Shown: piece by piece, positions 4,891 through 40,341 of the stretch | Numbering within the stretch: position 1 is the stretch's first letter | How the letters are laid out: every line of letters begins with the position of its first letter | Assembly (NCBI GenBank): GCA_005792545.1 | Contig: SXRM01000383.1 | Location: 10,562-74,561, forward strand | Reading direction: 5' to 3' | DNA: 64,000 nucleotides | DNA from: Pseudomonadota bacterium | Lineage (GTDB): Bacteria; Myxococcota_A; UBA9042 | The notes under the pieces: model-generated | What the model saw: only the letters and a program-made list of their open reading frames with translations | What the model was told of the DNA's origin: nothing | Database searches by the model: none | Translations under genes and position numbers: made by a program

Positions 4891-4944
4891 TCACGCCCCG
4901 GCCTGGACCCTGTCCCGCACCGCGCAACCGCTCGCAAGGTCACC

Positions 4945-26992: not shown

Positions 26993-27090
26993 TTAGGGCT
27001 GTTGCACCCAAGGTGCAAGAGGCCGCCATGTTTTTTCGGCAGGTTGCAGCGGACCGCGGCAACGGCAACGGCCGGCGGCGGCGGCGCCTA
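26993..27090 (+). repeat. MITE/REP-like repeat, degenerate short copy 7
   Basis: Starts TTAGGGC and carries a hairpin TTGCACC-CAA-GGTGCAA at the family position, then …GCCGCCATGTTT… (compare GCGCCCATTTGCC). It ends …GGCGCCTA, where CTA is the stop of the gene at 27088. The central core is poorly conserved. Confidence 0.4.
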
Positions 27091-29406
27091 CAGACACTTC
27101 AAGTTCTTGTTCGGCTGCAAAGGATACTTCTTGCTCAACAAATCGCCTTTTGAATCCGCGCCCTTGCATGGCTTGAAGCTGGCCGGCGACCACGTCGCCA
27201 CGCCGGCACACCACATATCCTGCATATCCATCACCGGGCCGATCTTGGTGGTGTGGAGTTTGCCGTCCAGGTACACCTTGATCGTCGGCGTCGACTTGCC
27301 AAATGCGTTGGCGGAGAAGTAGTACACACCCACGAAGTAGGCCAGTGCGGGCTGCGGAACGTGCACGGCGATGATTTCGGGTCCCCAGCCGTCCTTGTCG
27401 TCACGGTCGAGCGCTGCGTCGTCGTCAAAATCACCGCCTTTGCCCCACTTGCCGACGACGTTCCACACCGAGCAGTCCAGGCACGGCGCGTACCACGGGT
27501 CGGGCTCGCCATTCTTGTCCAAGTCGGGCTGCCCAGGCTCGTCGGGCGCATCGGCGTGGGCCAGGTGCACGTCCATGTCAGAGCCGACCGCCTTTGCGCC
27601 CGGGGTCGGATCGGTCTCGTCGGTCTTGGTGGGATCTGCCGGGGTATCCCAGGTCAACTCGACGTAGAGCTTGTCGTCGCTGACCACATTCAACTCGTAG
27701 GTCGTCGGCCCGCAGCCGGGCGTGTCGAGCGCGTCGGCGATGTCCAATGTGACCATGTACTTGCCGGCGATGTTGGGCTGCAGCTGCGGCGTTTTGACGT
27801 TGGGCGACGGCAAGAAGGTGGCATAGGAGCCGGCCGGTTGCTGCAGCGACCACTTGTACTTGCTGACCGGCTGGCCGCTCGAGCCCGGCACTGAGCAACT
27901 GGCGTCGAACTTGAGCTTGCTCTGCGGCAACACGTCGCCCGTCAGCGACCCGCCGTTGGCGAGCTTGACCGACATGCAGGCCTTGGGGCACTGCACGGTG
28001 GTGGCGGCCTTGCCGACGACCCCGAGTTCGCCCTTGCCAGCGTTGCTGGTGACCACGACCTTGCCCTTGTTGCTAGCGCCCAACTGCGGCGCTGTGTAGC
28101 TGACGCCCAGGCTGCATGTCGCGCCCTTGGGAACGACCACCGGGCTGGCGGTGCTCGGCGCCTTGCCGCCAAAACAGGTCGAATTGAAGCTGACCGCAAA
28201 GCCCTGGTCGGCGCCTTCAGCCACGGCGACGTTGGTCAGCGACAGGTCTTCGGTGCCACAAGCTTGCAGAAGGACCTCGCGCGGCTGCGGGACGCCGACA
28301 GGTGCCACGCCAAAGTCCAGGGGTCCTGCCGGCACGAACTTCAAGCATGGGCCAGTGGTGTTGACTACGAAGCTCAAGTCGACCTTTTCCTTGCCGATTT
28401 CGTTGGTGGCGAGGCGCAGAATCGCCTGGGCCTTCTCCTCGCTCGGCAAATTCTTGAATTCGACCGGAATTTCCAGCGCGGTGCCGGCAGGGATCTCGAT
28501 GGTCTTGCCGGCCGGCAGATCGCTGCCCTTGGCGATGAGGTAGCTGCCGAGTTGCGCTTGCAGCGGCAGCGTCCCCAACATGGTGGCCGACGAAATCACG
28601 GCCGCGCCCTTGCCGTCGTTGGCGCACAACACGGTCGCCGTGGCGCCCTGGGCCAGCCCAACCTTGCCGAAGTCGGTGTACGGCGGCGTACAGTCGAGCT
28701 TGGGCGAGCCCAGCCGAGTCGAGAACACCGCCGTCCACGGCGTGTCCGCCTGCTTGGTGTCGCCTGAAAACGTAAAGCTTACCTTGAACTTGCGAAGCTC
28801 TGAGCTGGTTGGCCGGGTGTAGCGGACGGTGAAATTAGCCAAAGCGATGGCGCCGCTGGGCGCGCAGGCCGCGTCAAAGCCGACCGGGATAACCGCCGGA
28901 AAGCCAGCGGGCGCGCACGGCTTGCCGTCGTGGCCGAGACAACTGAACGCGGGCGCCGCCACCGGCTTGCCATCGGCATCGGTTTCTTGCACCGCAACGG
29001 TCTTGACCAGCAGGGCCCGACCAGAGACCGCCTGGGCATTGTTGATGATGCGAAAGCCGAATTCGCGTACACCGCCTGGCTGCATCGCCACCATGTCGAT
29101 GTCGTAGGCCAGCGCGGCCGCATTGCCCGAGCCGTCTGAGATGCGCAGCACCGCGTTGTGGTCGATGTTCTCGTTGTTGCATGCCGTGTTGGTCGGCGCC
29201 TCCGTGCCGCAGCCCGCAAGCGAAACTGCGCATGCGACGCCGAACAGAAGGGTAAGGGCCCGTAGAAAATCTACTCGATTTTCTACGTGTACCGTTTGCT
29301 TGCTCGGTGGGTCGCAAACTCGCGGCTTTGCAAGCCGACTCGTCGCTCCGCCGCCTACCGAGGTCGACTGAGTTGTGCTTTGACATGCCCTAGTTGCGCT
29401 ACGCAT
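27088..29406 (-). CDS. paralog 1 of secreted multi-Ig-like lipoprotein with YfaP/DUF2135-like C-terminal domain (start unresolved)
   Basis: Lipobox is LTLLFGVACAVSLAGCG. It has Ig-like 'choice-of-anchor-D'-type repeats (…PLDFGVAPVG…), a PKD-like unit (KYKWSLQQPAG…) and the C-terminal block ELTWDTP…DMDVHL…DPW…DRDDKDGWGPE…VGVYYF…IKVYLDG. The nearest canonical in-frame start (ATG 29406) lies beyond repeat copy 2. Confidence 0.75.
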   Translation of the reverse strand: MRSATRACQSTTQSTSVGGGATSRLAKPRVCDPPSKQTVHVENRVDFLRALTLLFGVACAVSLAGCGTEAPTNTACNNENIDHNAVLRISDGSGNAAALAYDIDMVAMQPGGVREFGFRIINNAQAVSGRALLVKTVAVQETDADGKPVAAPAFSCLGHDGKPCAPAGFPAVIPVGFDAACAPSGAIALANFTVRYTRPTSSELRKFKVSFTFSGDTKQADTPWTAVFSTRLGSPKLDCTPPYTDFGKVGLAQGATATVLCANDGKGAAVISSATMLGTLPLQAQLGSYLIAKGSDLPAGKTIEIPAGTALEIPVEFKNLPSEEKAQAILRLATNEIGKEKVDLSFVVNTTGPCLKFVPAGPLDFGVAPVGVPQPREVLLQACGTEDLSLTNVAVAEGADQGFAVSFNSTCFGGKAPSTASPVVVPKGATCSLGVSYTAPQLGASNKGKVVVTSNAGKGELGVVGKAATTVQCPKACMSVKLANGGSLTGDVLPQSKLKFDASCSVPGSSGQPVSKYKWSLQQPAGSYATFLPSPNVKTPQLQPNIAGKYMVTLDIADALDTPGCGPTTYELNVVSDDKLYVELTWDTPADPTKTDETDPTPGAKAVGSDMDVHLAHADAPDEPGQPDLDKNGEPDPWYAPCLDCSVWNVVGKWGKGGDFDDDAALDRDDKDGWGPEIIAVHVPQPALAYFVGVYYFSANAFGKSTPTIKVYLDGKLHTTKIGPVMDMQDMWCAGVATWSPASFKPCKGADSKGDLLSKKYPLQPNKNLKCL
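29253..29393 (+). repeat. MITE/REP-like intergenic repeat, copy 2
   Basis: TAAGGGCCCGTAGAAAATCTACTCGATTTTCTACG… (11-bp perfect stem) …GGTGGGTCGCAAACTCGCGGCTTTGCAAGCCGACTCGTCGCTCCGCC…GAGGTCGACTGAGTT…GACATGCCCTAG. Confidence 0.85.
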
Positions 29407-29482
29407 CAAGTCGGCACCGCCCGCGACCTGACCGGCCGCAAGCCGGCAGTTTGCCATGCAGCCGGTCCGCGGTCCAAATCGG

Positions 29483-31819
29483 CTATTTCGCGCAAGCTTT
29501 GAGCGTAATCGAGGTCAGGCTCCAGTACTTGGGCACGATCTTGCCCGCCGAGGGGGCCTGCAAGTTGGCGCCGCCAAAGTCTGCCAGGTCGCAGCTGGGC
29601 CACTTGACCTGGGTCACCCACCACATTTCACATTGATTCATCTGCTGGTCAAAAGTGGCCTTGAGCGTACCCAGGCAATAGATGCGCACGGTGGCCTTGG
29701 TCGGCGAATTGCTGTTGAAGCCGTGTGCATCCCAGAAGTGCACGCCCACGCCGTAGTCGACGCCGTTTTCGGGCAGCTGCAGGTTCATGTTCTCGGGGCC
29801 CCAGCCGTTGGTGTCGTCCAGGTCCAGGCTCGGATCGTCGGTCTGCAGCGCCGCGTTGCCCCACTTGGGACTGGGGTTGATCCAATACACATCGTACACA
29901 CCATTGAACCACGGGTCGGTCTTGCCGTCTTTGTCCAGATCCGGCTGGCAGTTTTTGGTCACCGTCGCGCTGCACTGCTGCGCCTCGTAGGCCTTGCTGT
30001 GGACCACGTGCAGATCGAGGTCGGCGCCCTCTGCGGTCGGGCCGTCGTCCTGGACGGTGTCCTCTGGCGTGTTCCACAGCAGTTCGACGTGAAAGGCCAC
30101 GCTCGGCACCACCAGCACCGACAAGATCGCCGGCAGGCAATTCTCGGTGCCGCTGTCGTCCCAAACCTGCAGCTTGACCTTGTACTCGCCCGCCACCGTG
30201 AGCCAGGTCACCGGATCGCCATTAGGCTTGAGTCCGGGGACGCCAAGCGTGACATCAGCGGTGGAGTCGTTGGGGTAGAACTTGACGCCGGTCGCGCCCG
30301 CCGGTGCTTCCAAGAGCGTCCATTTATACTTGACCACCTTGCCGGGGGGCGCCGCGTAACTGGCCGAACCCTTGAGCTTGAGCGGACTCTGCGGCTCGAT
30401 CTGCTCGCCCGGGTCGGGCACGATGACCGGCGTTGGGCACTTGGCAGCGTTGCCGGTGCACGTCAGCGCAATTGACTTACTGGGCTTGGCCGTGCTGTCC
30501 ACCAGATCGAGCTTGGCGGTGAACGGCTGGTTCTTGCCGTCCTTGTCCTTGTTTTCGCTCGGCGGCGTGCAAGCGATGTCCAGCAGCACCTTGGCGTTCT
30601 TGGCGAGCGTCAGCGGCTGGGCGTCGGTCGGCAGCTTGGCGGACTTGAACGCGTAGATGCTCAGGCTGTCGTCGGCGATCTTGGCCGACTTGACCTGGAC
30701 CTCGCCCTCGCCGCAGTTGGTCAGCGTAACGGTCTTGACCGACTCAGTTCCGACGTACACCAGGCCGTGATCCAAGGTCTTCTCGGGCTTGACCAGCAAG
30801 CACGGCACGTTCATGTTGCCCTGCAGCTGCACCGTCGCCGCGCCCGCAGCGTTACTGACCAGCGTAAAGGTCGCTTTGCGGCCCTTGTCGTCGATCGGCG
30901 CGAACAGCACCTCGCCGTCCAGACTGTTGCCCGGGTCGATCTTGAGCGGCGGGGCGAAGGTGGCGTCCTTGTCGCCGGTCACCGTCTTGCCGCCGAGCTT
31001 GAGCGTGAACACCTTGTCTTGCAGCGGCCATTGCACAGCCGAGATCTCGAGCGGTGCCTCGCCGGTGTTCTGCACGGCGACCGCAAGACTAGCCGGCGGC
31101 GCGCCCGGCGCTACCACGTCGAAGTCGACGAACTGCGGCGCCACGTTGATGGCCGGCTTGCCCTGCTTGGTCTGCACCGTGAACTCGACGAACGTATGGT
31201 CGGGATCGCCGTCGGTCTTGATTTGTACCTTGACCGCTTTGGGCAAGTTGTCGGTCTTCTCGAAGCGCACCACGAAGCGGGCGGCGTCGACGGGGCTGCG
31301 CGAAGTGCACGCGGGTTCAAAGTCCTTGGGCACAACGGAGCCCCATATGTGGTCCTTGCACAGCACCGGCAGGCCGTTCTTTTTGATGACCTTGCCGTCG
31401 CTGTCGGCGGCGAGGCACGAAAACGCGGTCTCGCCGGCCGGCACCAGCAGATCCAGCTTGGTGATCAACAGCTCCAGGGCACTGCTGGCGACGGCGACGT
31501 TGCTGATCTGAAATGCGGTATCGATGGGCGGGCCGCCCTGCGTGGTCAACGAGGCGTTGACGACGACGGGCACCGTGGGATCGACCGCGGTCAGGCCTTG
31601 CCGCAGCTGCAACTTGGCCTGGCGGTCGAGCGCGGTGGTGTTGTCCTTGTCAAAGCTGCACTTCTTGGCGACGGTCGCCCCGCCATCGGCGCTGCCGGTG
31701 CCCGCAGTATCGGCGCCGCCGGGGCCATCCGAGGAACAAGCCGCGCCGGCCAGGCACACCAAGCCGATGGCGACGGCCGCGCGCGTGACCGAACGCCCCT
31801 TGCTACGCATCTGCATCAT
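29483..31819 (-). CDS. paralog 2 of secreted multi-Ig-like lipoprotein with YfaP/DUF2135-like C-terminal domain
   Basis: MMQMRSKGRSVTRAAVAIGLVCLAGAACSS (lipobox) with AGGA upstream. PKD-like unit is KYKWTLLEAPAG. C-terminal block is ELLWNTP…ADLDLHVVH…DPWF…LDLDDTNGWGPEN…VGVHFW…VRIY. Confidence 0.85.
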   Translation of the reverse strand: MMQMRSKGRSVTRAAVAIGLVCLAGAACSSDGPGGADTAGTGSADGGATVAKKCSFDKDNTTALDRQAKLQLRQGLTAVDPTVPVVVNASLTTQGGPPIDTAFQISNVAVASSALELLITKLDLLVPAGETAFSCLAADSDGKVIKKNGLPVLCKDHIWGSVVPKDFEPACTSRSPVDAARFVVRFEKTDNLPKAVKVQIKTDGDPDHTFVEFTVQTKQGKPAINVAPQFVDFDVVAPGAPPASLAVAVQNTGEAPLEISAVQWPLQDKVFTLKLGGKTVTGDKDATFAPPLKIDPGNSLDGEVLFAPIDDKGRKATFTLVSNAAGAATVQLQGNMNVPCLLVKPEKTLDHGLVYVGTESVKTVTLTNCGEGEVQVKSAKIADDSLSIYAFKSAKLPTDAQPLTLAKNAKVLLDIACTPPSENKDKDGKNQPFTAKLDLVDSTAKPSKSIALTCTGNAAKCPTPVIVPDPGEQIEPQSPLKLKGSASYAAPPGKVVKYKWTLLEAPAGATGVKFYPNDSTADVTLGVPGLKPNGDPVTWLTVAGEYKVKLQVWDDSGTENCLPAILSVLVVPSVAFHVELLWNTPEDTVQDDGPTAEGADLDLHVVHSKAYEAQQCSATVTKNCQPDLDKDGKTDPWFNGVYDVYWINPSPKWGNAALQTDDPSLDLDDTNGWGPENMNLQLPENGVDYGVGVHFWDAHGFNSNSPTKATVRIYCLGTLKATFDQQMNQCEMWWVTQVKWPSCDLADFGGANLQAPSAGKIVPKYWSLTSITLKACAK

Positions 31820-31870
31820 GTCCTTGGTCCTACGCTGGCGCGGTTCAACGCCGCCCGCCTGTTCAAGGGC

Positions 31871-32009
31871 TAGGGGACTGGAAAATTGGAATTTGAAGGC
31901 TCTCGGCACAAGACGGAGCCGCGAGTCGGCCTCCGAGGCCGCGCGCTGGCGACCCACCAAGCAAGCAAGGGGCTGCAGAAATGATTGAGCAAATCATTTC
32001 CAGGCCCTA
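31871..32009 (-). repeat. MITE/REP-like intergenic repeat, copy 3 (inverted orientation)
   Basis: The reverse complement reads CTAGGGCCTGGAAATGATTTGCTCAATCATTTC…CTTGCTTGCTTGGTGGGTCGCCAGCGCGCGGC…GCCGACTCGCGGCTCCG…CCCCTA. It has a 9-bp perfect stem. Confidence 0.8.
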
Positions 32010-34397
32010 GGGTCCGGTCGGCGTCTTGCACTGGGTGGCGGCACCGCCCACCGAGCCGTTGAACACCTTGTTGACGTAGCACTTGGTGATGCACCAATCG
32101 CCCTTGGGCTGCCACATCAGGTTCTTCTTGGCCGGGCACGAGTAGCCGGACTGGTAGCAGGTGTCGAACACCTTCTTACTGCCGCCCGACGCGGTGTTGG
32201 GCCAGTTGACGCGGCCAACGAACCACATGTCGAGCGGATCCATCTTGACCTTGGTGAACTGCAGCGCCAGACCGCCTTGGATGTAGATCGACACCGTGGC
32301 GTAGGACGTGCCGTAGCCGTGGTCATTCCAATAGTGGACGCCGACGTGGTAAGCGACCGGGTCGTCGACGGTGCCCTCGGGATCGACCAGGTTCAGATTC
32401 TCAGGGCCGGCGCCGTCGGTGTCGTCCAGGTCCAGGGTCGGGTTGTCCTTGGTGTTGCCGCTACCGCCCCACTCGGGCGCCGCGTTGAACCAGAAGGTGT
32501 CCCACGGGTTGCTGAACCACGGGTCGGCCTGACCGTCGCAGTCCAGGTCGAGCGTGGACGCCAGCGGGTGGGCGAAGTGCAAGTCGAGGTCCGCGCCGGC
32601 GGCGGGACCGCTGTCGGTCTGGTCGGGATCCGAAGGGGTGTCCCACAAAAGCTCAATGTGCAAAGCGTTATTGGGGATAACCAGCACCTTCTGGCAGGCC
32701 GGCACGCACGACTTGCTGTCGTTGGCGTCCCACACTTCGAGGCAGAACTCGTACTCGCCCGACGCGTTGGCCAAGAGCGACGGATTGACGAAGGAGGCAT
32801 TGGGCGTCAGCGCCTGGTTGGAGCCGGCCGGCTGCTTGACCGTCCACTTGTACTTCTTGATCGAGCCGCCGCCCGGGGCCTGCGACTTGTCGCCCTTCAA
32901 GTGAATCGTGGTCTGCGGCACCACCTGCTCGCCTTCGGTGACGATGACCTTGGCGATGGGGCAGGTGACCTTGACGCCGACGCCTTCAAGCTGGAGCTTG
33001 GGCGACACAAACGCATTGGACTTGACGGTCAGCACCGCGCCGTCCGGCGGCGCGCCGTCCTCGGTCAGGTCACTCGGGGCATACGCGACTTTGTAGGTGG
33101 CCTCGCCGTTGATCGGCAGGGTCATCGGGTTATCTGGGCTGATGGGGCCGGTGCCGTTCTTGGTCTTGGAGAACAGCGGCGTCTGGTCGATCGCAAACTC
33201 GTTGCTCTTGGTCTCCTCAGCGATGAAGTCGATGCTGGTGACGACCAGGTCCACCGAGCCACAGTTTTTGATCTTGACGTCGGCCGTGCCTGGGGTGCTG
33301 CCCGGTACGCCACCGCCGAAGTTGTACTTGCCGGTCGGGGTCATGCACAGCGCCGGCACCTGGGTGTTGCCATCCAAGACCAGCTTGCGGTTGGCGTTGT
33401 CGGGGTCATTGCTCTCGAATTTGAGTGTGCCCGACTTCTTCTTGTCATCTTTGGGGGCGAACACGACCTCGAACTGCGCCGACTTGCCGACGTCAATTTC
33501 GAGTGGCTTGGCAAACAACCAGGGCTTGCCGCCCACGTGGACGTCTTTGTCGTGATCGGGCGGGTCGATGAGCTTGATCGAGAACGCAGGATCGACCTCC
33601 GCCATCTTGATCGACGACAGCGTCAGCACTGCGTCGCCGCCGTTGACGGCTGCAAAGGTCTTCTTCTCGGTCTGACCGGGTTGGGTGTACGGGAACAGCA
33701 GACCGTCGGCCGGCTGCAGCTCGAGCTTGGGCTTGCCCTGCTCGGTCTTGACGTTGAAGGTGAAGGTGCGGTCGGCCTCCTCTTTGATGCCGCCCAGGGT
33801 CAGCGTCACGATCGCGTTGCGGTCCTTGGCGTCAAAGCGCGTGTAGCGCAAGTACAAGGTTTCTTTGTCAGACTGACCGGACTTGGGCGCCAGGCCGACA
33901 GGCACGACCGCTTTCCAGGATGCCTTGCCACACTTGACCGTCGCCGCAAGATCCTGGAAGCACTCCAGACCCTGTTTGTCCTCCGTCTCGTCCGGGCTGC
34001 CAAGTGTGTAGTTGAATTTGACCGACTTGATCGTCAAGGGCGCCGCGTCGGTTACGGTCTTGGTATTGCGAATCACGATCTGCAGCGGTTCGGTGCTGGA
34101 AGTCAGCTTGACCGAACCGACGGACAGCGCCACGGTGCCGCCGCGGGTCACAGTCTTGCCGGTGGACGGAACGGTCAGTTGGATGGCTGCGTTGCAGTCG
34201 ATAACGAAGCCGCTGGCGGAGACGCCCTTGCCCGACGCGCACGCAAATTCGCCGCCCGTTGGCGTATTGGGGTTGGTGTTGGGACCGCCGCCGCCGCCGT
34301 TGTCGGTGGGCCCAGTGGCTGTGCACGCCAAGCCGAGTATGGTTGCGGCTGCAAACGCGAGCACGCGGGTCGGGCGGTTCACAAGGCGGGTGTCCAT
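32007..34397 (-). CDS. paralog 3 of secreted multi-Ig-like lipoprotein with YfaP/DUF2135-like C-terminal domain
   Basis: MDTRLVNRPTRVLAFAAATILGLACTATG (lipobox) with AGGAG 7 nt upstream. PKD-like unit is KYKWTVKQPAG. C-terminal block is ELLWDTPSDP…ADLDLHFAH…DPWF…LDLDDTDGAGPEN…VGVHYW…VSIYIQG. Confidence 0.87.
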   Translation of the reverse strand: MDTRLVNRPTRVLAFAAATILGLACTATGPTDNGGGGGPNTNPNTPTGGEFACASGKGVSASGFVIDCNAAIQLTVPSTGKTVTRGGTVALSVGSVKLTSSTEPLQIVIRNTKTVTDAAPLTIKSVKFNYTLGSPDETEDKQGLECFQDLAATVKCGKASWKAVVPVGLAPKSGQSDKETLYLRYTRFDAKDRNAIVTLTLGGIKEEADRTFTFNVKTEQGKPKLELQPADGLLFPYTQPGQTEKKTFAAVNGGDAVLTLSSIKMAEVDPAFSIKLIDPPDHDKDVHVGGKPWLFAKPLEIDVGKSAQFEVVFAPKDDKKKSGTLKFESNDPDNANRKLVLDGNTQVPALCMTPTGKYNFGGGVPGSTPGTADVKIKNCGSVDLVVTSIDFIAEETKSNEFAIDQTPLFSKTKNGTGPISPDNPMTLPINGEATYKVAYAPSDLTEDGAPPDGAVLTVKSNAFVSPKLQLEGVGVKVTCPIAKVIVTEGEQVVPQTTIHLKGDKSQAPGGGSIKKYKWTVKQPAGSNQALTPNASFVNPSLLANASGEYEFCLEVWDANDSKSCVPACQKVLVIPNNALHIELLWDTPSDPDQTDSGPAAGADLDLHFAHPLASTLDLDCDGQADPWFSNPWDTFWFNAAPEWGGSGNTKDNPTLDLDDTDGAGPENLNLVDPEGTVDDPVAYHVGVHYWNDHGYGTSYATVSIYIQGGLALQFTKVKMDPLDMWFVGRVNWPNTASGGSKKVFDTCYQSGYSCPAKKNLMWQPKGDWCITKCYVNKVFNGSVGGAATQCKTPTGP

Positions 34398-34525
34398 GGC
34401 GGTACTCCTGCAAAAACGAGTGCGGTTGCGGAATCTGCTGCGGTCGTCGAGGTCGTTCGCGTTCGTGGGGCGCGCCGTTGCGCGCGAAGTCATGCCGCGG
34501 CGGTGGCCGCAGGCACAACCTCTGG

Positions 34526-34554: not shown

Positions 34555-34620
34555 CCACAAAAAGCCACCGAAAAACGCACACCAGATCGCCTGGGGTAAA
34601 AAAGTCCCGGGCGCACGGAA

Positions 34621-36192
34621 TCAATCGCCGCCGGTCGGCACCTGGTACCACTTGCGCGTCCACTCGGTCAGCATGTTGTCGTCGGTGACAAACGGCGTAT
34701 GCAAGGTCCGTTCAACCAGCTTGGCGCAGGTTTCCGCCTGGCCGCCGTCCGGGCCATAGGTGCTCTGGTCGGCCAGGCGCAGGATTTCGTCCAACCGCGC
34801 GCGGTGCGACGGTTGGGTCAGGTCGAAGATCTTGCGACCGTCGACCACGATCTGCTCCAGCTCCGCGCGCCAGCGGTGGCGATCGAGCACCACCGGTTCA
34901 TCGCTCAGGTACACGAAATTGATGATGCGCAGCCCGTGCTTGAACGCCGAGCAACCGGTCTTTTGGGCGGTCTCGCTCCAGGTGGTGTTGTAGACGAACA
35001 GGCCACCGGGGTTCAGGTGGGCCTTGACCAGCTGCAAGTACTCCATGCTCAGCAAGTCCGTGATGTTGCCGCGCCAGTGCCAGGTGGTGTTCTGCAGCAC
35101 GGTGTCGAATTTCTCGGTCGGATGGGCGCGCAGCCAGCGGCGGCCATCGTCGAACACCAGGTGCACCTTGGGGTTTTTTAGCAGCGACTGCACCTCGGGG
35201 AACTTGCCGACCAGCTCGGGATAGCCAGGGTTGATCTCGACTACGGTCAGATCGGTCACGCCGGGCAGGTGCGCCAGCACCTGCGCCCAGGAGCCCGACG
35301 ACAAGCCAATCATCAGCACTTTTCCGGTCTTGCGCGGCAAGCCTGCCAGCGCATAGGCCCGCACGATCAAGTTGCGATCGTGCACGACGTCGGTGTTGAA
35401 CACGCCGTCGTACATGCCGCCGCCAAAGATCGCGCCGTCCTGCGACACCGTGATGACGCCCGAGCGGTTCTCGACCACGTGGGCAAAGCGCTGGCCCTCG
35501 TACTTCTTTTTGTACATCAGCTTTTCGTACATACCGGCGTGCAGGCTTGGCCCAGCCAGGGCGCCGACCACCGCAAACAGCGGCAGCACCATCGCCCCCA
35601 CGGCCTTGGGCACGGCCTCGCTACAACTGGCCCACCACAAGACCGACGTCAGCATGACGCCCAGCACCATCAGTAGCGCCGAGATGTGCTGCAGCGGCAG
35701 CACCTGCATCAGCACGAACCCGGTCAGCAGCGACCCAAGCACGCTGCCGGCGATGTTGGCGAGGTACAGGTAGCTCAGCTTTTCGCCGACCTCGGCGTTG
35801 GCTTCGATGCCGTAGTGGGCGACCAGCGGCAAGATCGCGCCCATCAGCCCCGCAGCCAGGGCCACCGCCGCGAGCGAAAACGCGTAGGTGGCAAACGTCA
35901 CCAGGTGCGCCACTGCCGGCACCAGCGCAAAGCTGACCACCGTGGAGGCGAGCACCAGGCCCGCCGGCCAACGCAGCCGCTTGGGATCGCCGCCGGTGCC
36001 GACCTCGTCGCAAACCTTGCGCGCGCCCAGGCTGCCAAAGGCGATGCCGGCCAGGTAGGCGCCGAGCATCACGCCGAAACTGGACGGCGCGCCGCCGGTC
36101 AGGTAGCCGTAGACGCGAAACCACACCATCTCATACGAGAGGGCAATGTAGCCGGCAAGACCGGTGACCAGAAGCGCCAGGCGAAACGTCAT
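34621..36192 (-). CDS. fused polytopic-membrane (MFS-like) / spermidine-synthase-like protein
   Basis: The N-terminal about 230 aa contain multiple TM helices (MTFRLALLVTGLAGYIALSYEMVWFRVYG…). The C-terminal Rossmann domain is …KVLMIGLSSGSWAQVL…VVEINPGY…FDDGRRWL…FDTVLQNT…NPGGLFVYN, which has the spermidine-synthase layout but with altered GGGDG and D-x-x-D-P motifs. Confidence 0.75.
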   Translation of the reverse strand: MTFRLALLVTGLAGYIALSYEMVWFRVYGYLTGGAPSSFGVMLGAYLAGIAFGSLGARKVCDEVGTGGDPKRLRWPAGLVLASTVVSFALVPAVAHLVTFATYAFSLAAVALAAGLMGAILPLVAHYGIEANAEVGEKLSYLYLANIAGSVLGSLLTGFVLMQVLPLQHISALLMVLGVMLTSVLWWASCSEAVPKAVGAMVLPLFAVVGALAGPSLHAGMYEKLMYKKKYEGQRFAHVVENRSGVITVSQDGAIFGGGMYDGVFNTDVVHDRNLIVRAYALAGLPRKTGKVLMIGLSSGSWAQVLAHLPGVTDLTVVEINPGYPELVGKFPEVQSLLKNPKVHLVFDDGRRWLRAHPTEKFDTVLQNTTWHWRGNITDLLSMEYLQLVKAHLNPGGLFVYNTTWSETAQKTGCSAFKHGLRIINFVYLSDEPVVLDRHRWRAELEQIVVDGRKIFDLTQPSHRARLDEILRLADQSTYGPDGGQAETCAKLVERTLHTPFVTDDNMLTEWTRKWYQVPTGGD

Positions 36193-36220
36193 GGGTAGCC
36201 TTGGGGCAAAGGGGGCAAAA

Positions 36221-36571
36221 TCACAGGTCGCCGTCGAGGTCGGCCCACAATAGGCGCGACAGCACGAGGTCTTGAAGGTCATCGGGCACGGGCTGGGCGC
36301 TCAACAGCACCGGCGCCGCGGCAATGGCCCGCGCCAACTGCCCGGGATCACTGACGGCACGCAAGCGAACCACGCCATTTTCGTCTTCTAAAATCGCGCT
36401 TGGTCCAGAGCTACAGGCAGACAGGCAACTCGACCTGCCGACCTCGAGGGTGCGACCGTGGGCTGCGGCGGCTTTCTTGGCGGCGGTGGTCAACCGCGCC
36501 AACGACGCCATCGGCGCGGGGCGCGGACAGCCGGTGCATAGCATCACGCGCAACTGCGGGGCTGCGGTCAT
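36221..36571 (-). CDS. small 4-Cys metal-binding protein (thioredoxin-like [2Fe-2S] ferredoxin / DUF1636-like)
   Basis: …VMLCTGCPRP…SSCLSACSSGPSAILEDENG… has C-x2-C … C-x3-C spacing. Its start overlaps the upstream gene's stop by 4 nt. Confidence 0.5.
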   Translation of the reverse strand: MTAAPQLRVMLCTGCPRPAPMASLARLTTAAKKAAAAHGRTLEVGRSSCLSACSSGPSAILEDENGVVRLRAVSDPGQLARAIAAAPVLLSAQPVPDDLQDLVLSRLLWADLDGDL

Positions 36572-37347
36572 TTGCCGAGCGCCTCGGGCACGAACAGCGC
36601 GTCTGGCAGTTGCGTACGGGTGTCGATGTCGCGGGTCTCGACGGTGGTGACCGAGTTTCGCAGGTGGTTGAGCATGCGGAACTTTTTCATCACGGTCCTG
36701 CCGGGCTCGCCGGCCTGCACCTGTTCGACGACCAGCGTTTTGACGTGGGCGCCGGCTTTGTCGAAGAACTTGATCTGGCGCGCCACAAACAGGCGGTCGT
36801 CAATCCACAACTGCACCTTGCCGTAGGCGTCTTCGCTGTCGGTGATGGCAACCTCGATTCGGGTGCATGGCGCGCCGCCAATGGCCTCGCTGCCGGCCAG
36901 CTTGGCCTCACCGGTCTGCAAGCCGCGGCCTTGCAGGTCGCCGAACGAAAAATCGGTGCCCATGAACGCTTCGTTGCGCTGTGAGCCACTGATGCGCCGC
37001 AACCGCCCGGTCTTGGGCAGCCACAGGTACTGGCTGGCGGCGCCGCCACCTTCTTCGAGAATGAGCAGTTCGGTGCCGACCGCGTCGGCGGGCTCCAAGA
37101 AGGTCACCCGCGACTTGAGCCGGCCGTCCTTGCCGCGCACCACGCGGCTTTGGGTCAGCCAGGTCTTGGATTTGCCACTGGCCAGAGTCAACGTGACCGC
37201 AGTCTTGCTCTGGCCGGCCTGAAAACCGCTGGCGTTGCGGTCGTTGGTGGCCTGCAGGACCTTGCGCGCAGCGGGGTCGTCGGCCGCCAGACAGGGATCG
37301 GCTGCCACAAGAGTCAGTGCGATCGCGATGGCCAGCAAGATGCGCAT
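36568..37347 (-). CDS. LolA-like 'outer membrane lipoprotein-sorting' family protein (DUF1329-related)
   Basis: Signal is MRILLAIAIALTLVAADPCLAA. …YLWLPKTGRLRRISGSQRNEAFMGTDFSFGDL… is the hallmark stretch of that family as I remember it. Confidence 0.65.
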   Translation of the reverse strand: MRILLAIAIALTLVAADPCLAADDPAARKVLQATNDRNASGFQAGQSKTAVTLTLASGKSKTWLTQSRVVRGKDGRLKSRVTFLEPADAVGTELLILEEGGGAASQYLWLPKTGRLRRISGSQRNEAFMGTDFSFGDLQGRGLQTGEAKLAGSEAIGGAPCTRIEVAITDSEDAYGKVQLWIDDRLFVARQIKFFDKAGAHVKTLVVEQVQAGEPGRTVMKKFRMLNHLRNSVTTVETRDIDTRTQLPDALFVPEALGK

Positions 37348-37358
37348 GGGAACCTCGC

Positions 37359-38168
37359 CTACGCCGGCCGGGCGTGCAGCCACGCCTTGGTGCGGGCGTG
37401 CTCGGGGGCGCGCTCGGTGCGCTTGACCCGGTAGCCACAGCCGCGCGAGATCAGTTGCACCGTGTGCGACCGACCGGGAAACGCGGCTTTGAGCTCGCTC
37501 AGCACCGCATCGGTGTCGAAAAACTTGCACGAGAAAATGTCGAAGTAGGCGCGATCACTGGCCTGTTCGATGTGCACCGCGATGTGCGATTCGGCAATCA
37601 TGGTCATGGCCGACAGCCAGCCGCCGCCATCGGGGCCGTTGGTGTCGTTGGACCGCAGCACATACGGCCGCATGATAGGGGTCATGTCGATGCGCGGCGG
37701 CAGGTTGTCGAACAGCCGGAACAGGCCGTCCATGTCGCGCGGTCCCGAGTAGCCGTCGATGTTGAGCAGCAGGTGCGGGCCGAAGTCTTCGCTGGGATGC
37801 ACCGGCACTTCGTCGAACGGCCGCGGCCGGCGCGCCGTGTGGACCTCGACCGAGCGCACCGGCAGTGCGTTCTGGATAAACGCATTGGCCTCATGGACAT
37901 CGAACGCCCGCGGCGCCACCAGGTCCACGAAGTAGCACTCGCGAAAGCTGAACGTGTGCAGCGTCAGGTGCCCGCCCGGCAGAAACACAAACGCGCTGAT
38001 GCCGCAGTCGTCGGGCTCGACGCCGTTGTAGTACGGTAAAAGCATCGGCGGCATGGCGGGTTGCAGCCCAAGGCGCACCGGCAGCTCTTCAATGAGCTCG
38101 TGAATCAGCCGGATGTCGTCAAAGCGCGATCGGTGACCGCCAAAACCGTCGAGCGTATAGTGCAGCAT
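37359..38168 (-). CDS. tandem-duplicated S-adenosylmethionine-decarboxylase-like (SpeD/SpeH fold) pyruvoyl enzyme
   Basis: The N-terminal half has …ISAFVFLPGGHLTLHTFSF…FVDL…, with GGH replacing the ESH processing site. The C-terminal half has …SAMTMIAESHIAVHIEQ…YFDIFSCKFF…, with an intact E-S-H self-cleavage motif and the D.F.C motif. Only the last 269 codons of the track ORF are used. Confidence 0.7.
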   Translation of the reverse strand: MLHYTLDGFGGHRSRFDDIRLIHELIEELPVRLGLQPAMPPMLLPYYNGVEPDDCGISAFVFLPGGHLTLHTFSFRECYFVDLVAPRAFDVHEANAFIQNALPVRSVEVHTARRPRPFDEVPVHPSEDFGPHLLLNIDGYSGPRDMDGLFRLFDNLPPRIDMTPIMRPYVLRSNDTNGPDGGGWLSAMTMIAESHIAVHIEQASDRAYFDIFSCKFFDTDAVLSELKAAFPGRSHTVQLISRGCGYRVKRTERAPEHARTKAWLHARPA

Positions 38169-38232
38169 GATTCCTGGCGCGCGGGGACAAAGGGGTCCGG
38201 CCGCGGGGCGCGCAATTGTGGCAGAGGTCGCG

Positions 38233-39861
38233 ATGGTGCAAAAGGGGTGTGCGGTGCGCACACGCGCCAACTTGCCGACGATCCGCGTGGCGATCTGGCT
38301 GTGCGTGGCCAGTTGGCCGGCGCATGCGCTCGCCCAAGCCATAGTGCCGGCGCTGACGGCGACCGCGACGGTGCTGGATGAATTCGGCGATGGCGGCGCC
38401 GTGGCGGAGTCGCCGGCAGAGGCACCGCCAGCCGGGCCGACGCTGTTCTGGGGCGCTTGGGTCGGCGTGCTCGGGCTGGATATCGCTGCCGAAGACCCGG
38501 CCGAAGACGTGCTGGCGCTGCGCAATCGCCTGGATCTGGACGTCAAGCACCCGCTGCCCGGTGGGCTGCAGGTGCGCCTCTCCGCCCGCATGCTGCACCG
38601 GGCGCAAGTAGGCCACCAGGGTGCGATCACCAAGCCTGCCTTTGCGGCCGATTTGCCCGATCTGGGCATGCGCTACGATCTGGACAGCCAGCTTCGCTTC
38701 GCCAACCTGCAGTGGTCCGCCGATTGGGGTCGGCTCACCGTCGGTCGCGACACCGTCAACTGGGGGGCGCTGGAGCTGCAAAGCGCGCTGCGGTTCCTAC
38801 ACCCGATGGACTTGAGCAACGGCCTGGTCGGCAGCCTCGGCAACGCCGAAGAGTCGCCGCTGCTGCCGTCGTGGTTGCTGCGCCTGGAGCGCCCGCTGGG
38901 GCCAGGCCAGCTCGATGTGGTGTTCTTACCGTTCTTTGATCAGCACCGGTTTTCGCCGTTTGCCACTGACGCCGCCTTCGTGCGGCCCGGCCAGGGTCCG
39001 GAGCTGTCGGGGTCGCTCGCGGTGTTGCTGCGGAGGCTGGACCTGCGGCTAGACCGCCAGCTGTCGCAGGCGTTGATGAGCGCGCTGCGGCCTGCCAGCG
39101 ACACGCCGCTCGATGGCACGCCGGCAGCGCGCTGGCGGACGACACTTGGCCAATTCGACGTTGCGCTGGTCGCAGCGTGGGCTTGGGACCGCCTGCCCGA
39201 GCTGCACCTAGATCAGGACCTGCTGCTGTTGCTGTCACGCACGGCCGACGCTGGCTTTGACACGGCCAAGCTGGCGTCGATGTTTGCCGATCCGGCGGTG
39301 GCGGCGGCCGCCGAGCGCGCCAAGGGCAAGACCGTGGCGGACCTGGCGGAGGCGACCTGGCGTCGACGCGGCATCGTGGGCGTGGAGGCCCAAGGCGAAC
39401 TCGCGCAGGGGTGGATGGCGCGCGGCGAATTGGCGTGGAGCCACCAACGGGTATTCATGGACACCGGCTTCCGACCGCTGCTGTCGCCCCTGGCGCAGGG
39501 AGGCGTCGGGCTGGAGCGCAACTGGGGCGACCGCGCCGCGGCGGTGGTGGAATTCAGCGGCCAGTGGGCCTACTTGGTGCCCAAAGACACCGAGCTGATG
39601 CTGGCAGCGGCGCTGCAGTGGCAAGTAGGCGGCGGACTGCTGGTGCGCTGGGGCGAGGCCGACGCCTGGTCGGCGCAACTGGGCGGTTACTACGGCGTGA
39701 CGTTGCGGGACTGGGCGGTGGCGCCGCGCGTGGCGTGGCAGCTGGGCGATCGCTGGCAGGCGACCGTTGGCGCTGTGGTGGCCGATGGCCCGACCAACTC
39801 GATGGGCGGGTGGTTCGGCGCCGATGATCAGGTGCTTTTCGAGGCACGGCGCACGTTCTGA
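38233..39861 (+). CDS. outer-membrane beta-barrel candidate, DUF1302-like
   Basis: Signal is …IRVAIWLCVASWPAHALA. …WGRLTVGRDTVNWGALE… resembles the DUF1302 'RlGrQ.v.WGe' motif. The C-terminus ends …EARRTF (aromatic terminal residue). The start could also be 38167. Confidence 0.6.
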   Translation: MVQKGCAVRTRANLPTIRVAIWLCVASWPAHALAQAIVPALTATATVLDEFGDGGAVAESPAEAPPAGPTLFWGAWVGVLGLDIAAEDPAEDVLALRNRLDLDVKHPLPGGLQVRLSARMLHRAQVGHQGAITKPAFAADLPDLGMRYDLDSQLRFANLQWSADWGRLTVGRDTVNWGALELQSALRFLHPMDLSNGLVGSLGNAEESPLLPSWLLRLERPLGPGQLDVVFLPFFDQHRFSPFATDAAFVRPGQGPELSGSLAVLLRRLDLRLDRQLSQALMSALRPASDTPLDGTPAARWRTTLGQFDVALVAAWAWDRLPELHLDQDLLLLLSRTADAGFDTAKLASMFADPAVAAAAERAKGKTVADLAEATWRRRGIVGVEAQGELAQGWMARGELAWSHQRVFMDTGFRPLLSPLAQGGVGLERNWGDRAAAVVEFSGQWAYLVPKDTELMLAAALQWQVGGGLLVRWGEADAWSAQLGGYYGVTLRDWAVAPRVAWQLGDRWQATVGAVVADGPTNSMGGWFGADDQVLFEARRTF

Positions 39862-40056: not shown

Positions 40057-40341
40057 CTACTTGATGTGCTCGACGCCCTGCTTCTCGACGGTGGCCTTCC
40101 ACACTTTCTCGGGCAGCCACTTGGGGCGGTTGGTCGGCGCGGTGACTTCTTTGCGTCCGCCCTTGAACACGTGCACGCGCTTGGTGCCGCGCTCGCGCAG
40201 ACGGATCTCGGTGTAGCCGCGGGCGGCGGCCTTGAGCGCGGCACCGCGCGGCTGCGCGTTCGAGAACACGATGTTGGTGTCCTTGCCGTCCTCCATCAGC
40301 ACGAAGTTCTTCTTTTCCTTGGCGGCTTTCTCGTCGGCCAT
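40057..40341 (-). CDS. MC1-family chromosomal (DNA-bending) protein homolog
   Basis: MADEKAAKEKKNFVLMEDGKDTNIVFSNAQPRGAALKAAARGYTEIRLRERGTKRVHVFKGGRKEVTAPTNRPKWLPEKVWKATVEKQGVEHIK aligns along its full length with Methanosarcina MC1 as I recall it (…RNFVLRDE…VFTGKQPRQAALKAANRG…IRLRERGTKKVHVFKAWKEIVDAPKNRPAWMPEKISKPFVKKERIEKL). A GGGAGG RBS lies 4 nt before the ATG. Confidence 0.85.
   Translation of the reverse strand: MADEKAAKEKKNFVLMEDGKDTNIVFSNAQPRGAALKAAARGYTEIRLRERGTKRVHVFKGGRKEVTAPTNRPKWLPEKVWKATVEKQGVEHIK

What the first reader, a model, noticed from the sequence alone, without database searches (positions are those of the whole stretch)
34621..39861. Candidate undescribed envelope system: pyruvoyl decarboxylase-like + LolA-like + 4-Cys protein + membrane-fused aminopropyltransferase-like enzyme, paired with a DUF1302-like barrel
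Four minus-strand genes are packed with an 11-nt gap, a 4-nt overlap and a 28-nt gap (38168->34621):
- a two-domain AdoMetDC-like enzyme
- a secreted LolA-like 'lipoprotein-sorting' protein
- a small C-x2-C…C-x3-C protein
- a polytopic membrane protein fused to a spermidine-synthase-fold domain

A DUF1302-like outer-membrane barrel starts divergently only about 65 bp away. DUF1302 barrels and DUF1329/LolA-like proteins are known as a recurrent pair of unknown function, usually next to an RND-type transporter. Here the transporter slot is occupied by the MFS-like/aminopropyltransferase fusion. The cluster also brings its own decarboxylase that could supply a decarboxylated (aminopropyl or similar) donor.

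The synthase domain has non-canonical motifs (GLSSGS for GGGDG; QNTTW for D-S-T-D-P), so the acceptor is probably not putrescine. My inference is a membrane-coupled alkylamine transfer onto a lipid, lipoprotein or exported small molecule, handed across the periplasm to an OM barrel. The three-paralog lipoprotein array follows directly downstream.
Basis: inference. Interest (0 to 1): 0.7.

Follow-up and report, generated by a model that had tools for sequence, protein, structure and literature searches.

The report
Barrel, LolA-like carrier and decarboxylase cluster

Summary
The genes, their spacing and most family assignments are real. The proposed five-gene "alkylamine relay" does not hold.

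What is conserved is a smaller unit. The barrel gene E sits divergently from the operon D-C-B (decarboxylase, LolA-like protein, 4-Cys protein). This unit recurs in six independent genomic contexts, with E identity falling to 43%.

The membrane/spermidine-synthase-fold gene A follows B only in the window's own clade (A at least 81% identical). Seventy-seven other A homologs have none of the partner genes within 10 kb. A also lacks the acidic residue needed to bind decarboxylated SAM and the catalytic D-x-x-D motif. It looks like a solitary SAM-methyltransferase-like membrane protein.

- **E** is a divergent member of the DUF1302 superfamily.
- **C** is a firm match to PF17131 (LolA_like).
- **B** weakly resembles DUF1636 and thioredoxin-like [2Fe-2S] ferredoxins.
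- **D** is a single-chain pseudo-dimer of the AdoMetDC fold. Only its C-terminal half has a pyruvoyl site. Its family usually stands alone, and one copy lies in a phage-like contig.

Best reading: E and C are a DUF1302/DUF1329-type envelope pair, co-transcribed with an enzyme that can work on its own to make a polyamine precursor. Moderate interest; a new variant of a known kind.

The parts
38233..39861 (+). E: outer-membrane beta-barrel, a divergent member of the DUF1302 superfamily (542 aa). It has a signal peptide ending ...AHALA|QA and a C-terminal Phe.
   Evidence: The window protein has no direct Pfam hit. The close family is small, 22 clusters. The AF2 model (pLDDT 75.6) is a barrel of about 18 strands with helical inserts, and it gives only generic porin fold hits. 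A family profile finds 749 representative proteins, and 42 of 59 sampled are Pfam DUF1302. The C-terminal ...RRTF was read from the sequence.
38169..38232 (.). 64-nt divergent intergenic region between D and E, holding the conserved motif CTCTGCCACAATTG.
   Evidence: Upstream regions from 8 loci were printed side by side. I read the motif as overlapping E's ribosome-binding site, and perhaps a -10 element for D. A promoter-like site for E lies at 38133-38161. No Rfam match.
37359..38168 (-). D: single-chain pseudo-dimeric pyruvoyl decarboxylase with the AdoMetDC/SpeD fold (269 aa). The N-terminal half is catalytically degenerate (GGH, no Cys). The C-terminal half keeps E193-S194-H195, H199 and C214.
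   Evidence: Pfam PF02675 at 73.8 bits in two stretches. Motifs are invariant in 120 homologs. The two halves are 26% identical, E=1e-10. AF2 pLDDT is 93.2, and one domain-sized region (116 aligned columns) superposes on T. maritima AdoMetDC with TM 0.83.
36568..37347 (-). C: periplasmic LolA-fold protein, PF17131 (259 aa), with a Sec signal peptide and no lipobox in homologs.
   Evidence: Pfam 140.6 bits. PDB 3BK5 at 1.5e-17 and 9TP6 at 1.9e-16. Alignment of 7 orthologs. One hydrophobic N-terminal segment.
36221..36571 (-). B: small cytoplasmic protein (116 aa) with the pattern C-x2-C...C-L-S-x-C. It resembles DUF1636 and thioredoxin-like [2Fe-2S] ferredoxins. Its start overlaps the stop of C (ATGA).
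   Evidence: The four Cys are invariant in 7 orthologs that are only 28-79% identical. The best PDB profile hit is HydC, a NuoE-like protein, at E=0.15 with both Cys pairs aligned. DUF1636 hits 2 of 7 (8.3e-4) and 2Fe-2S_thioredx hits 2 of 7.
34621..36192 (-). A: protein with about 7 transmembrane segments fused to a spermidine-synthase-fold (class I methyltransferase) domain, in family NF037959. It is probably co-transcribed here but is not a conserved member of the cluster.
   Evidence: describe the protein. Searches cover its neighbourhood in 80 genomes. Terminator-like hairpins follow directly at 34582-34620.

Best explanation
The real, conserved unit is the barrel gene E facing a D-C-B operon.

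**E and C.** These are this lineage's version of the DUF1302/DUF1329-type pair. E is an outer-membrane barrel of about 18 strands. C is a soluble periplasmic LolA-fold partner. By analogy with that pair, they most likely dock to each other and pass a hydrophobic or amphipathic molecule between the periplasm and the outer membrane. This step is inferred.

**D.** D is a single-chain pseudo-dimer of the prokaryotic AdoMetDC fold with one pyruvoyl active site, in its C-terminal half. Its family works on its own in most genomes. It most likely makes a polyamine precursor: decarboxylated SAM, agmatine or putrescine. The substrate is unresolved.

**B.** B is a small cytoplasmic Cys4 protein that probably binds [2Fe-2S] or zinc. 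Its gene is translationally coupled to C.

**How they relate.** I read the persistent E|D-C arrangement as co-regulation of polyamine supply with an envelope trafficking function, inherited from the ancestor of this clade. I do not read it as a covalent aminopropyl relay.

**A.** A was added downstream only in the window's own genus-level clade. It is a member of a large family whose genes have no conserved neighbours. Its SAM pocket looks like that of a methyltransferase, not an aminopropyltransferase.
For: **Gene structure and tight spacing.**

**E|D-C(-B) kept in six contexts with unrelated flanking genes.**

| Context | E | D | C | B |
|---|---|---|---|---|
| Window clade L008-L010 | 68-83% | 90-97% | 76-88% | 62-80% |
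| L088 | 46% | 78% | 57% | 30% |
| L091 | 60% | 85% | 74% | 44% |
| L093 | 44% | 76% | 59% | found by profile |
| GCA_041447055.1 contig | 59% | AdoMet_dc gene present | PF17131 gene present | 117-aa gene in B's place, not checked |
| L099 | 43% | 69% | 47% | absent; a 648-aa gene lies between D and C |

**Ancestral arrangement.** In a neighbour-joining tree of D, the linked copies include the deepest branch of the clade, and the D-only copies are nested inside. This points to an ancestral arrangement followed by losses.

**E is a DUF1302 relative.**. DUF1302 is an 18-strand barrel that co-occurs with DUF1329 and is predicted to bind it (ipTM 0.84; PMC13499233).

**C is a firm PF17131 member.**

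**D's single active site.**

**D's family is autonomous.**

**A is not part of the unit and is not a spermidine synthase.**
Against: - No experiment or expression data link any of these genes.
- The clade is narrow: 22 E clusters, all from uncultured Myxococcota. Part of the conservation may be plain inheritance.
- The unit can come apart. E stands alone in L092. D-C occurs without E or B in L095/L096. D stands alone at 72-76% identity in L089 and L098.
- 'Co-regulation' is a weak mechanism. It does not explain why a cytoplasmic decarboxylase, rather than any other gene, sits between E and C.
- No inner-membrane component was found, whereas DUF1302/DUF1329 genes in Pseudomonas are cofit with RND and BNR genes.
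- The E-C interaction was not modelled here.
Confidence: 0.5

Rival explanations
1. True pathway. D's product, a polyamine or a moiety derived from decarboxylated SAM, is attached to or travels with a lipid or other amphipathic envelope molecule. C then carries it across the periplasm to barrel E, for export or surface display. B supplies a redox or metal function. A is not required.
For: D always lies between E and C in six contexts whose flanks are otherwise scrambled. D-C gaps are short where measured (8-72 nt), and C-B gaps are 0-6 nt or overlapping. The D-C pair survives even where E and B are missing (L095). The arrangement appears ancestral to the clade.
Against: D copies at 68-76% identity work outside the cluster and are nested inside the clade, one of them in a phage-like contig. 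So D is not specialised for E and C. The conserved unit encodes no transferase or ligase that could join an amine to a carrier, and no inner-membrane exporter. LolA-fold cavities carry hydrophobic ligands, not free polyamines (general knowledge).
Confidence: 0.2
2. Synteny by descent only. D-C-B and E are functionally unrelated genes that have stayed adjacent in a fairly young, slowly rearranging lineage. There is no system.
For: The distribution is narrow: 22 E clusters and only 4 loci in the JGI metagenome scan. The unit breaks in L092, L095, L089 and L098. All the families involved also occur independently elsewhere.
Against: Flanking genes differ completely in every context outside the window clade, while E|D-C persists down to 43% E and 30% B identity. 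C and B are translationally coupled. E and C belong to two families already known to pair.
Confidence: 0.22
3. D supplies decarboxylated SAM to the membrane-fused aminopropyltransferase-like A. A alkylates a lipid, lipoprotein or exported molecule, which passes through C to barrel E.
For: In the window clade, D-C-B-A are packed on one strand with no terminator-like site until after A. A has a spermidine-synthase-fold domain.
Against: A is adjacent only in L008-L010 and the window. The other 77 of 80 A homologs lack D, C, B and E, even in profile searches. Five E|D-C contexts lack A. A has no conserved neighbour anywhere. A has an invariant Ser299 where Asp or Glu is required for decarboxylated SAM, and N368-T369 in place of the catalytic D-x-x-D (criterion in PMC10349129).
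Confidence: 0.05

Closest known systems
DUF1302 (PF06980) / DUF1329 (PF07044) outer-membrane pair of Pseudomonas, e.g. P. putida PP_0765/PP_0766
   Same: Both have a barrel of about 18 strands plus a LolA-clan periplasmic partner encoded side by side. Function is unknown in both cases. E is linked to DUF1302 through remote homologs. C is in the same clan, and its homologs give faint DUF1329 hits. AlphaFold-Multimer predicts a DUF1302-DUF1329 complex (PMC13499233).
   Different: E itself falls below Pfam detection. C belongs to PF17131, not PF07044. The two genes are divergent and separated by a decarboxylase gene. There is no LuxR or AraC regulator, and no BNR or RND gene in the cluster. The Pseudomonas genes are tied to fatty-ester and Tween phenotypes, which cannot be tested here.
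SpeD1-SpeD2 (AdoMetDC-ornithine decarboxylase) fusion proteins of Li et al. 2023 (PMC10407285), and eukaryotic class 2 AdoMetDC
   Same: All are two AdoMetDC-fold domains in one chain of about 270 aa. One domain can be catalytically degenerate, as in the Victivallis vadensis fusion and in class 2 enzymes.
   Different: In D the N-terminal half is the dead one (GGH, no Cys) and the C-terminal half carries the pyruvoyl serine. That is the reverse of V. vadensis and of class 2 enzymes. D's halves resemble each other more (E=1e-10) than they resemble either domain of the published fusions, which suggests an independent duplication. No speE gene follows D.
NF037959 'fused MFS/spermidine synthase' family, and the fungal 7-TM N-terminal histidine methyltransferase NHMT (PMC10349129)
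   Same: A passes the NF037959 cutoff (50.1 vs 40 bits). It is 43-54% identical over its full length to homologs in Mycobacterium, Planctomycetota and Acidobacteriota. Like NHMT, it has about 7 TM helices followed by a spermidine-synthase-fold domain that lacks the Asp/Glu of GxG(D/E)G.
   Different: No substrate is known for the bacterial family. Homology of the membrane domain to NHMT was not tested. The topology, and so whether the catalytic domain faces the cytoplasm or the periplasm, is unresolved.
Thioredoxin-like [2Fe-2S] ferredoxins (NuoE/HydC type, PF01257) and DUF1636 (PF07845)
   Same: B shares the two Cys pairs, including C-L-S/G-A-C-x2-G/A-P, and a similar size. Its best PDB profile hit is HydC, with both pairs aligned.
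   Different: All scores are below family thresholds. The first pair is CxxC rather than Cx4C. Cluster binding is untested.

Membership tests
AdoMetDC/SpeD, PF02675 (prokaryotic class 1b fold) | Profile match above the curated cutoff, and the fold | tested here: met
   73.8 bits against a cutoff of 25, in two stretches. AF2 pLDDT 93.2. One domain-sized region (116 aligned columns) superposes on T. maritima AdoMetDC with TM 0.83 and rmsd 1.9 A.
AdoMetDC/SpeD, PF02675 (prokaryotic class 1b fold) | Self-processing Glu-Ser site with the conserved His and Cys | tested here: met
   The C-terminal half has E193-S194-H195, H199 and C214, invariant or nearly so in 120 homologs. The N-terminal half has G65-G66-H67 and no Cys.
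AdoMetDC/SpeD, PF02675 (prokaryotic class 1b fold) | Decarboxylates S-adenosylmethionine (rather than Arg or Orn) and is paired with a spermidine synthase | tested here: inconclusive
   Activity cannot be tested with these tools. The only neighbouring spermidine-synthase-fold gene, A, lacks aminopropyltransferase motifs. The equivalog TIGR03330 scores 45.5 against a cutoff of 75.65.
SpeD-SpeDC fusion proteins (Li et al. 2023) | N-terminal domain is a bona fide AdoMetDC with its own pyruvoyl serine | tested here: not met
   The N-terminal half has invariant GGH in place of ESH and lacks the Cys. Compare the Fig. S5 alignment in PMC10407285.
DUF1302 (PF06980) | Profile match above the curated cutoff | tested here: not met
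   The window protein has no hit at E<=10. Only 2 of 22 close homologs hit, best 2.3e-4.
DUF1302 (PF06980) | Homology through intermediate sequences, and an 18-strand barrel | tested here: met
   The E-family profile finds 749 representatives. Of 59 sampled, 42 are DUF1302, up to 89.6 bits. A profile of those hits E orthologs in related loci at 1e-93 to 1e-106. The model has about 18 strands. DUF1302 is described as an 18-strand barrel.
LolA_like / TP_0789-like (PF17131) | Profile match above the cutoff; a secreted LolA-fold protein | tested here: met
   140.6 bits against 30, covering positions 4-183 of the 184-position model. PDB 3BK5 at 1.5e-17. An N-terminal signal peptide is present.
DUF1329 (PF07044) | Profile match | tested here: not met
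   C has no PF07044 hit at E<=0.01. Only 'faint' precomputed hits exist in two homologs.
Spermidine synthase / aminopropyltransferase | Asp or Glu in GxG(D/E)G, which binds decarboxylated SAM | tested here: not met
   The motif is G-L-S-S-G with Ser299 invariant in 12 diverse homologs. It aligns with GGGEG of T. thermophilus SpeE. The criterion is quoted from PMC10349129.
Spermidine synthase / aminopropyltransferase | Catalytic D-x-x-D(P) after strand beta-4, and equivalog-level scores | tested here: not met
   Q-N-T-T-W aligns with D-L-T-D-P, and N368 and T369 are invariant. TIGR00417 scores 32.7 against 249.55, and PRK00811 scores 39.2 against 260.
NF037959 fused MFS/spermidine synthase | Subfamily profile above the cutoff; membrane domain plus spermidine-synthase-fold domain | tested here: met
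   50.1 bits against 40. About 7 hydrophobic segments in residues 1-215. Homologs that cover 91-100% of A carry this name in NCBI.
Thioredoxin-like [2Fe-2S] ferredoxin / DUF1636 | Four cluster-binding Cys and a profile match | tested here: inconclusive
   The four Cys are invariant. Scores are sub-threshold: PF01257 E=0.42; DUF1636 8.3e-4 in 2 of 7; HydC E=0.15.
DUF1302/DUF1329 system with RND and BNR partners | Associated RND-family transporter and BNR-domain protein | tested here: not met
   Neither appears among the cluster genes or among the larger ORFs sampled across the rest of the 64-kb window. The only RND/MMPL-family hit is the SecD/SecF_C domain of the housekeeping SecD and SecF genes at 3073-6327. 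In L088 an RND gene lies about 6 kb away on the other strand, and it does not recur in other contexts.

The most novel reading that the evidence does not exclude
E|D-C-B is a dedicated pathway. In it, the product of an undescribed class of single-chain, 'reversed' pseudo-dimeric AdoMetDC-fold decarboxylase becomes part of an amine-bearing amphipathic envelope molecule. The LolA-fold protein C then ferries that molecule to the DUF1302-like barrel E. If so, this would give the first functional handle on the DUF1302/DUF1329-type pair and a new envelope role for a polyamine enzyme.
Probability: 0.15. Interest if true: 0.7.

Novelty: new variant of a known kind. Interest (0 to 1): 0.38.

Why it matters
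DUF1302/DUF1329-type pairs are widespread in Gram-negative bacteria, including ESKAPE pathogens, and their function is still unknown. A lineage where such a pair is locked to an enzyme of predictable chemistry offers a testable clue to what the pair carries.

Separately, D represents a large family: at least 477 clusters at 90% identity, in Myxococcota, Armatimonadota, a Deinococcus MAG and one phage-like contig. These are single-chain AdoMetDC-fold enzymes whose only active site is in the C-terminal half. I could not find this architecture in the literature held here. It bears on how single-chain, eukaryote-like AdoMetDC forms arise.

The practical correction is about annotation. 'Fused MFS/spermidine synthase' proteins of this type should not be read as polyamine synthases.

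Tried and rejected
- **Genome-wide scan anchored on A.** I expected a conserved A-B or A-C link and found none.
- **JGI metagenome scan anchored on C.** Only 4 loci came back, so no statistics were possible.
- **Upstream ORF in L095 as a diverged E.** Rejected: it is an alpha-amylase.
- **Fold search with the E model.** It returned only generic porins (TM about 0.35/0.52), so it was not useful for family assignment.
- **Riboswitch or other RNA in the cluster.** Nothing credible in Rfam.
- **Two-domain D homologs in phage collections.** INPHARED and IMG/VR hold only single-domain SpeD homologs. The phage-like contig L090 is a single observation.
- **Substrate assignment for D by comparison with published fusions.** The sequences came from an OCR'd figure. 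Identities of 30-36% over fewer than 60 residues are too low to decide between SAM, Arg and Orn.
- **Topology of A from hydropathy.** Seven segments with the N-terminus inside would place the catalytic domain in the periplasm. The count is uncertain by one helix, so I make no claim.
- **Structure prediction for B.** Not attempted, because its homologs could not be submitted as an alignment.

Full report
**Source and gene map**

The window is part of contig SXOF01000331.1 of the metagenome-assembled genome GCA_005776855.1. Its closest relatives are uncultured lake Myxococcota. G+C is about 65-69% throughout, and the surrounding genes are ordinary chromosomal ones: SecD/SecF, RecJ, Asd, a class II tRNA synthetase and a XerD-like recombinase.

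| Gene | Coordinates | Strand | Length |
|---|---|---|---|
| D | 37359-38168 | - | 269 aa |
| C | 36568-37347 | - | 259 aa |
| B | 36221-36571 | - | 116 aa |
| A | 34621-36192 | - | 523 aa |
| E | 38233-39861 | + | 542 aa |

- There is an 11-nt gap between D and C, a 4-nt ATGA overlap between C and B, and a 28-nt gap between B and A. E starts 64 nt from D on the other strand.
- These exact protein sequences exist as called genes in public data.
- Terminator-like hairpins follow A directly. A promoter-like site precedes the first of the three downstream lipoprotein paralogs, so that array is probably a separate transcript.

**What each protein is**

*D.*
- It matches Pfam AdoMet_dc in two stretches.
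- Aligned to T. maritima AdoMetDC, the N-terminal half reads ...LPGGHLTLH...VAP where the enzyme has ...SESHLTIH...FTCG. It has lost both the pyruvoyl serine and the catalytic cysteine.
- The C-terminal half keeps AESH..H and FSC. Both patterns are invariant or nearly so in the 120 best homologs.
- The two halves are homologous to each other (26% identity, E=1e-10).
- The AF2 model is confident (pLDDT 93.2). One domain-sized region (116 aligned columns) superposes on T. maritima AdoMetDC at TM 0.83, and the whole chain also aligns, more loosely, with human class 2 AdoMetDC.
- So D is a single-chain pseudo-dimer with one active site, located in the C-terminal half.
- The published bacterial SpeD-SpeD fusions have a bona fide AdoMetDC in the N-terminal half and an ornithine decarboxylase, live or degraded, in the C-terminal half (PMC10407285). 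D is the reverse, and by sequence it looks like an independent duplication.
- I found no description of this architecture in the searchable library.

*C.*
- It is a firm member of PF17131 (140.6 bits) and is related to crystallised 'outer membrane lipoprotein-sorting proteins' such as 3BK5 and 9TP6.
- It has a Sec signal peptide, and its orthologs have no lipobox.

*B.*
- It has four invariant cysteines, C-x2-C and C-L-S-x-C, in orthologs that are otherwise only 28-79% identical.
- Its best matches are weak but consistent: HydC/NuoE-type thioredoxin-like [2Fe-2S] ferredoxin and DUF1636.
- It has no signal peptide.

*E.*
- It has no Pfam or NCBIfam hit, and only 22 close clusters exist among 5.8 billion proteins.
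- The AF2 model is a barrel of about 18 strands with helical inserts. The protein ends in Phe.
- A profile of the family, searched exhaustively, finds 749 representative proteins. Of 59 sampled, 42 are Pfam DUF1302, up to 89.6 bits.
- A profile of those remote relatives recovers the E orthologs in related loci at 1e-93 to 1e-106.
- E is therefore a divergent member of the DUF1302 superfamily.

*A.*
- It belongs to the large NF037959 'fused MFS/spermidine synthase' family: 1864 hits, 43-54% identical across phyla.
- In this family, the Asp or Glu of GxG(D/E)G that binds decarboxylated SAM is an invariant Ser. The catalytic D-x-x-D-P is replaced by Q/N-N-T-T/S-W. The criterion comes from PMC10349129.

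**Is the five-gene set co-conserved?**

*Anchored on A.* I scanned one genome per GTDB species and kept 80 loci with 10-kb flanks.
- Only L008, L009 and L010 carry B, C, D and E. In these, A is 81-94% identical and the whole neighbourhood is syntenic with the window.
- The other 77 loci come from Myxococcota, Mycobacterium, Planctomycetota and Acidobacteriota. They carry none of the four genes, even when searched with profile HMMs.
- The only recurrent 'neighbour' of A is the extra N-terminal membrane half of its own long isoform.

*Anchored on D, E or C.*

| Locus | E | D | C | B | A | Notes |
|---|---|---|---|---|---|---|
| Window clade (window, L008-L010) | + | + | + | + | + | Syntenic throughout |
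| L088 | 46% | 78% | 57% | 30% | - | |
| L091 | 60% | 85% | 74% | 44% | - | |
| L093 | 44% | 76% | 59% | + | - | B found by profile |
| GCA_041447055.1 contig | 59% | + | + | 117-aa gene | - | D and C known from Pfam only; B's place followed by an ATP-grasp gene |
| L099 | 43% | 69% | 47% | - | - | Unrelated 648-aa gene between D and C |
| L095/L096 | - | 76% | 59% | - | - | |
| L092 | 55% | - | - | - | - | |
| L098 | - | 76% | - | - | - | D alone |
| L089 | - | 72% | - | - | - | A lipoprotein-like methyltransferase follows D |
| L090 | - | 68% | - | - | - | Phage-like contig |
| L004, L006 | - | 51-56% | - | - | - | D alone |

- Flanking genes differ in every case outside the window clade.
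- In a neighbour-joining tree of D, the E/C-linked copies include the deepest branch of the clade (L099), and the D-only copies are nested inside. E|D-C is therefore most simply ancestral, with later losses.

**Interpretation**

- The conserved unit is E facing D-C-B, not the five-gene set.
- E and C reproduce the DUF1302/DUF1329-type pairing. In Pseudomonas that pair is co-expressed and cofit with RND and BNR genes on Tween and fatty esters, and it is predicted to form a complex. The function of that pair is itself unknown.
- The best-supported mechanism is therefore an analogy: an outer-membrane barrel with a periplasmic hydrophobic-ligand partner.
- D belongs to a family that clearly functions alone elsewhere. 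I infer it makes a polyamine precursor, with the substrate unresolved among SAM, arginine and ornithine.
- D's persistent position between E and C is the one truly unusual feature. I read it as co-regulation (confidence about 0.5). A true biochemical link (0.2) and mere inherited synteny (0.22) remain open.

**Novelty and value**

All parts belong to known families, characterised or 'DUF'. The new elements are the association of a DUF1302/LolA-like pair with a pyruvoyl decarboxylase, and the reversed pseudo-dimeric architecture of D. This is a new variant of a known kind, of moderate interest. It would become considerably more interesting if D's product proved to be the cargo, or part of the cargo, of E and C.

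Noticed in passing
window 40057-40341 (-), called as 94 aa: A homolog of the archaeal chromatin protein MC1 (Pfam PF05854, E=3.7e-28) is encoded just beyond E in this Myxococcota genome. It is 94-98% conserved in L008-L010. MC1 is normally regarded as a euryarchaeal protein.
   Followed up: no
window 37359-38168 (-), and 477+ homolog clusters: D defines a large family of single-chain, two-domain AdoMetDC-fold proteins. The N-terminal half is invariably dead (GGH) and the C-terminal half invariably keeps ESH/H/C. This is the reverse of the published SpeD-SpeDC fusions and of eukaryotic class 2 AdoMetDC. Named homologs come from MAGs assigned to Myxococcota, Polyangiaceae, Armatimonadota and Deinococcus.
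   Followed up: partly
L090:10001-10801, with flanks 1-20801: A 68%-identical two-domain D homolog sits in a phage-like contig, among DNA polymerase A, a primase zinc-ribbon protein, thymidine kinase, a deoxynucleoside kinase and a nucleoside deoxyribosyltransferase. INPHARED and IMG/VR hold only single-domain SpeD homologs.
   Followed up: partly
L089:10785-11666, compared with L095:10001-11803: In two related genomes D is followed by the same downstream genes, an LTD-domain lipoprotein and ribulose-phosphate 3-epimerase. The slot right after D holds a LolA-like gene in L095, but in L089 it holds a methyltransferase-fold protein with a lipoprotein-like signal peptide (...VSFAC), overlapping D by 32 nt.
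   Followed up: partly
window 27088-34493 (-): Three tandem paralogous lipoproteins of about 790-830 aa, 32-34% identical to each other. Two have choice-of-anchor-D and PKD-like domains and lipobox-like N-termini. They follow A only in the window's own clade.
   Followed up: partly
L011-L087 (A homologs), e.g. L048:9968-10606: About a third of the A-family genes (26 of 77 loci) carry an extra N-terminal membrane half of about 215 aa, giving 720-770-aa isoforms. The window's A is the short 523-aa form. Some genomes hold two paralogs, for example Labilithrix luteola (L049 and L058) and Baikal-deep-G138 (L013 and L018).
   Followed up: partly
window 38169-38232, and the equivalent regions of L008-L010 and L091: The motif CTCTGCCACAATTG(C/G) is conserved in the 64-nt divergent E-D intergenic region. 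I read it as overlapping E's ribosome-binding site. It could be a shared operator or a -10 element.
   Followed up: no
window 58287-59624 (-): A second, unrelated decarboxylase candidate lies in the window: a PLP-dependent group II decarboxylase domain (PF00282, E=2.2e-12). It could be relevant to amine or polyamine metabolism in this organism.
   Followed up: no
window 11090-17839 (-): A 2249-aa ORF whose only Pfam hit is a Dictyostelium CTDC-type repeat. A 590-aa beta-helix protein lies just downstream of it.
   Followed up: no
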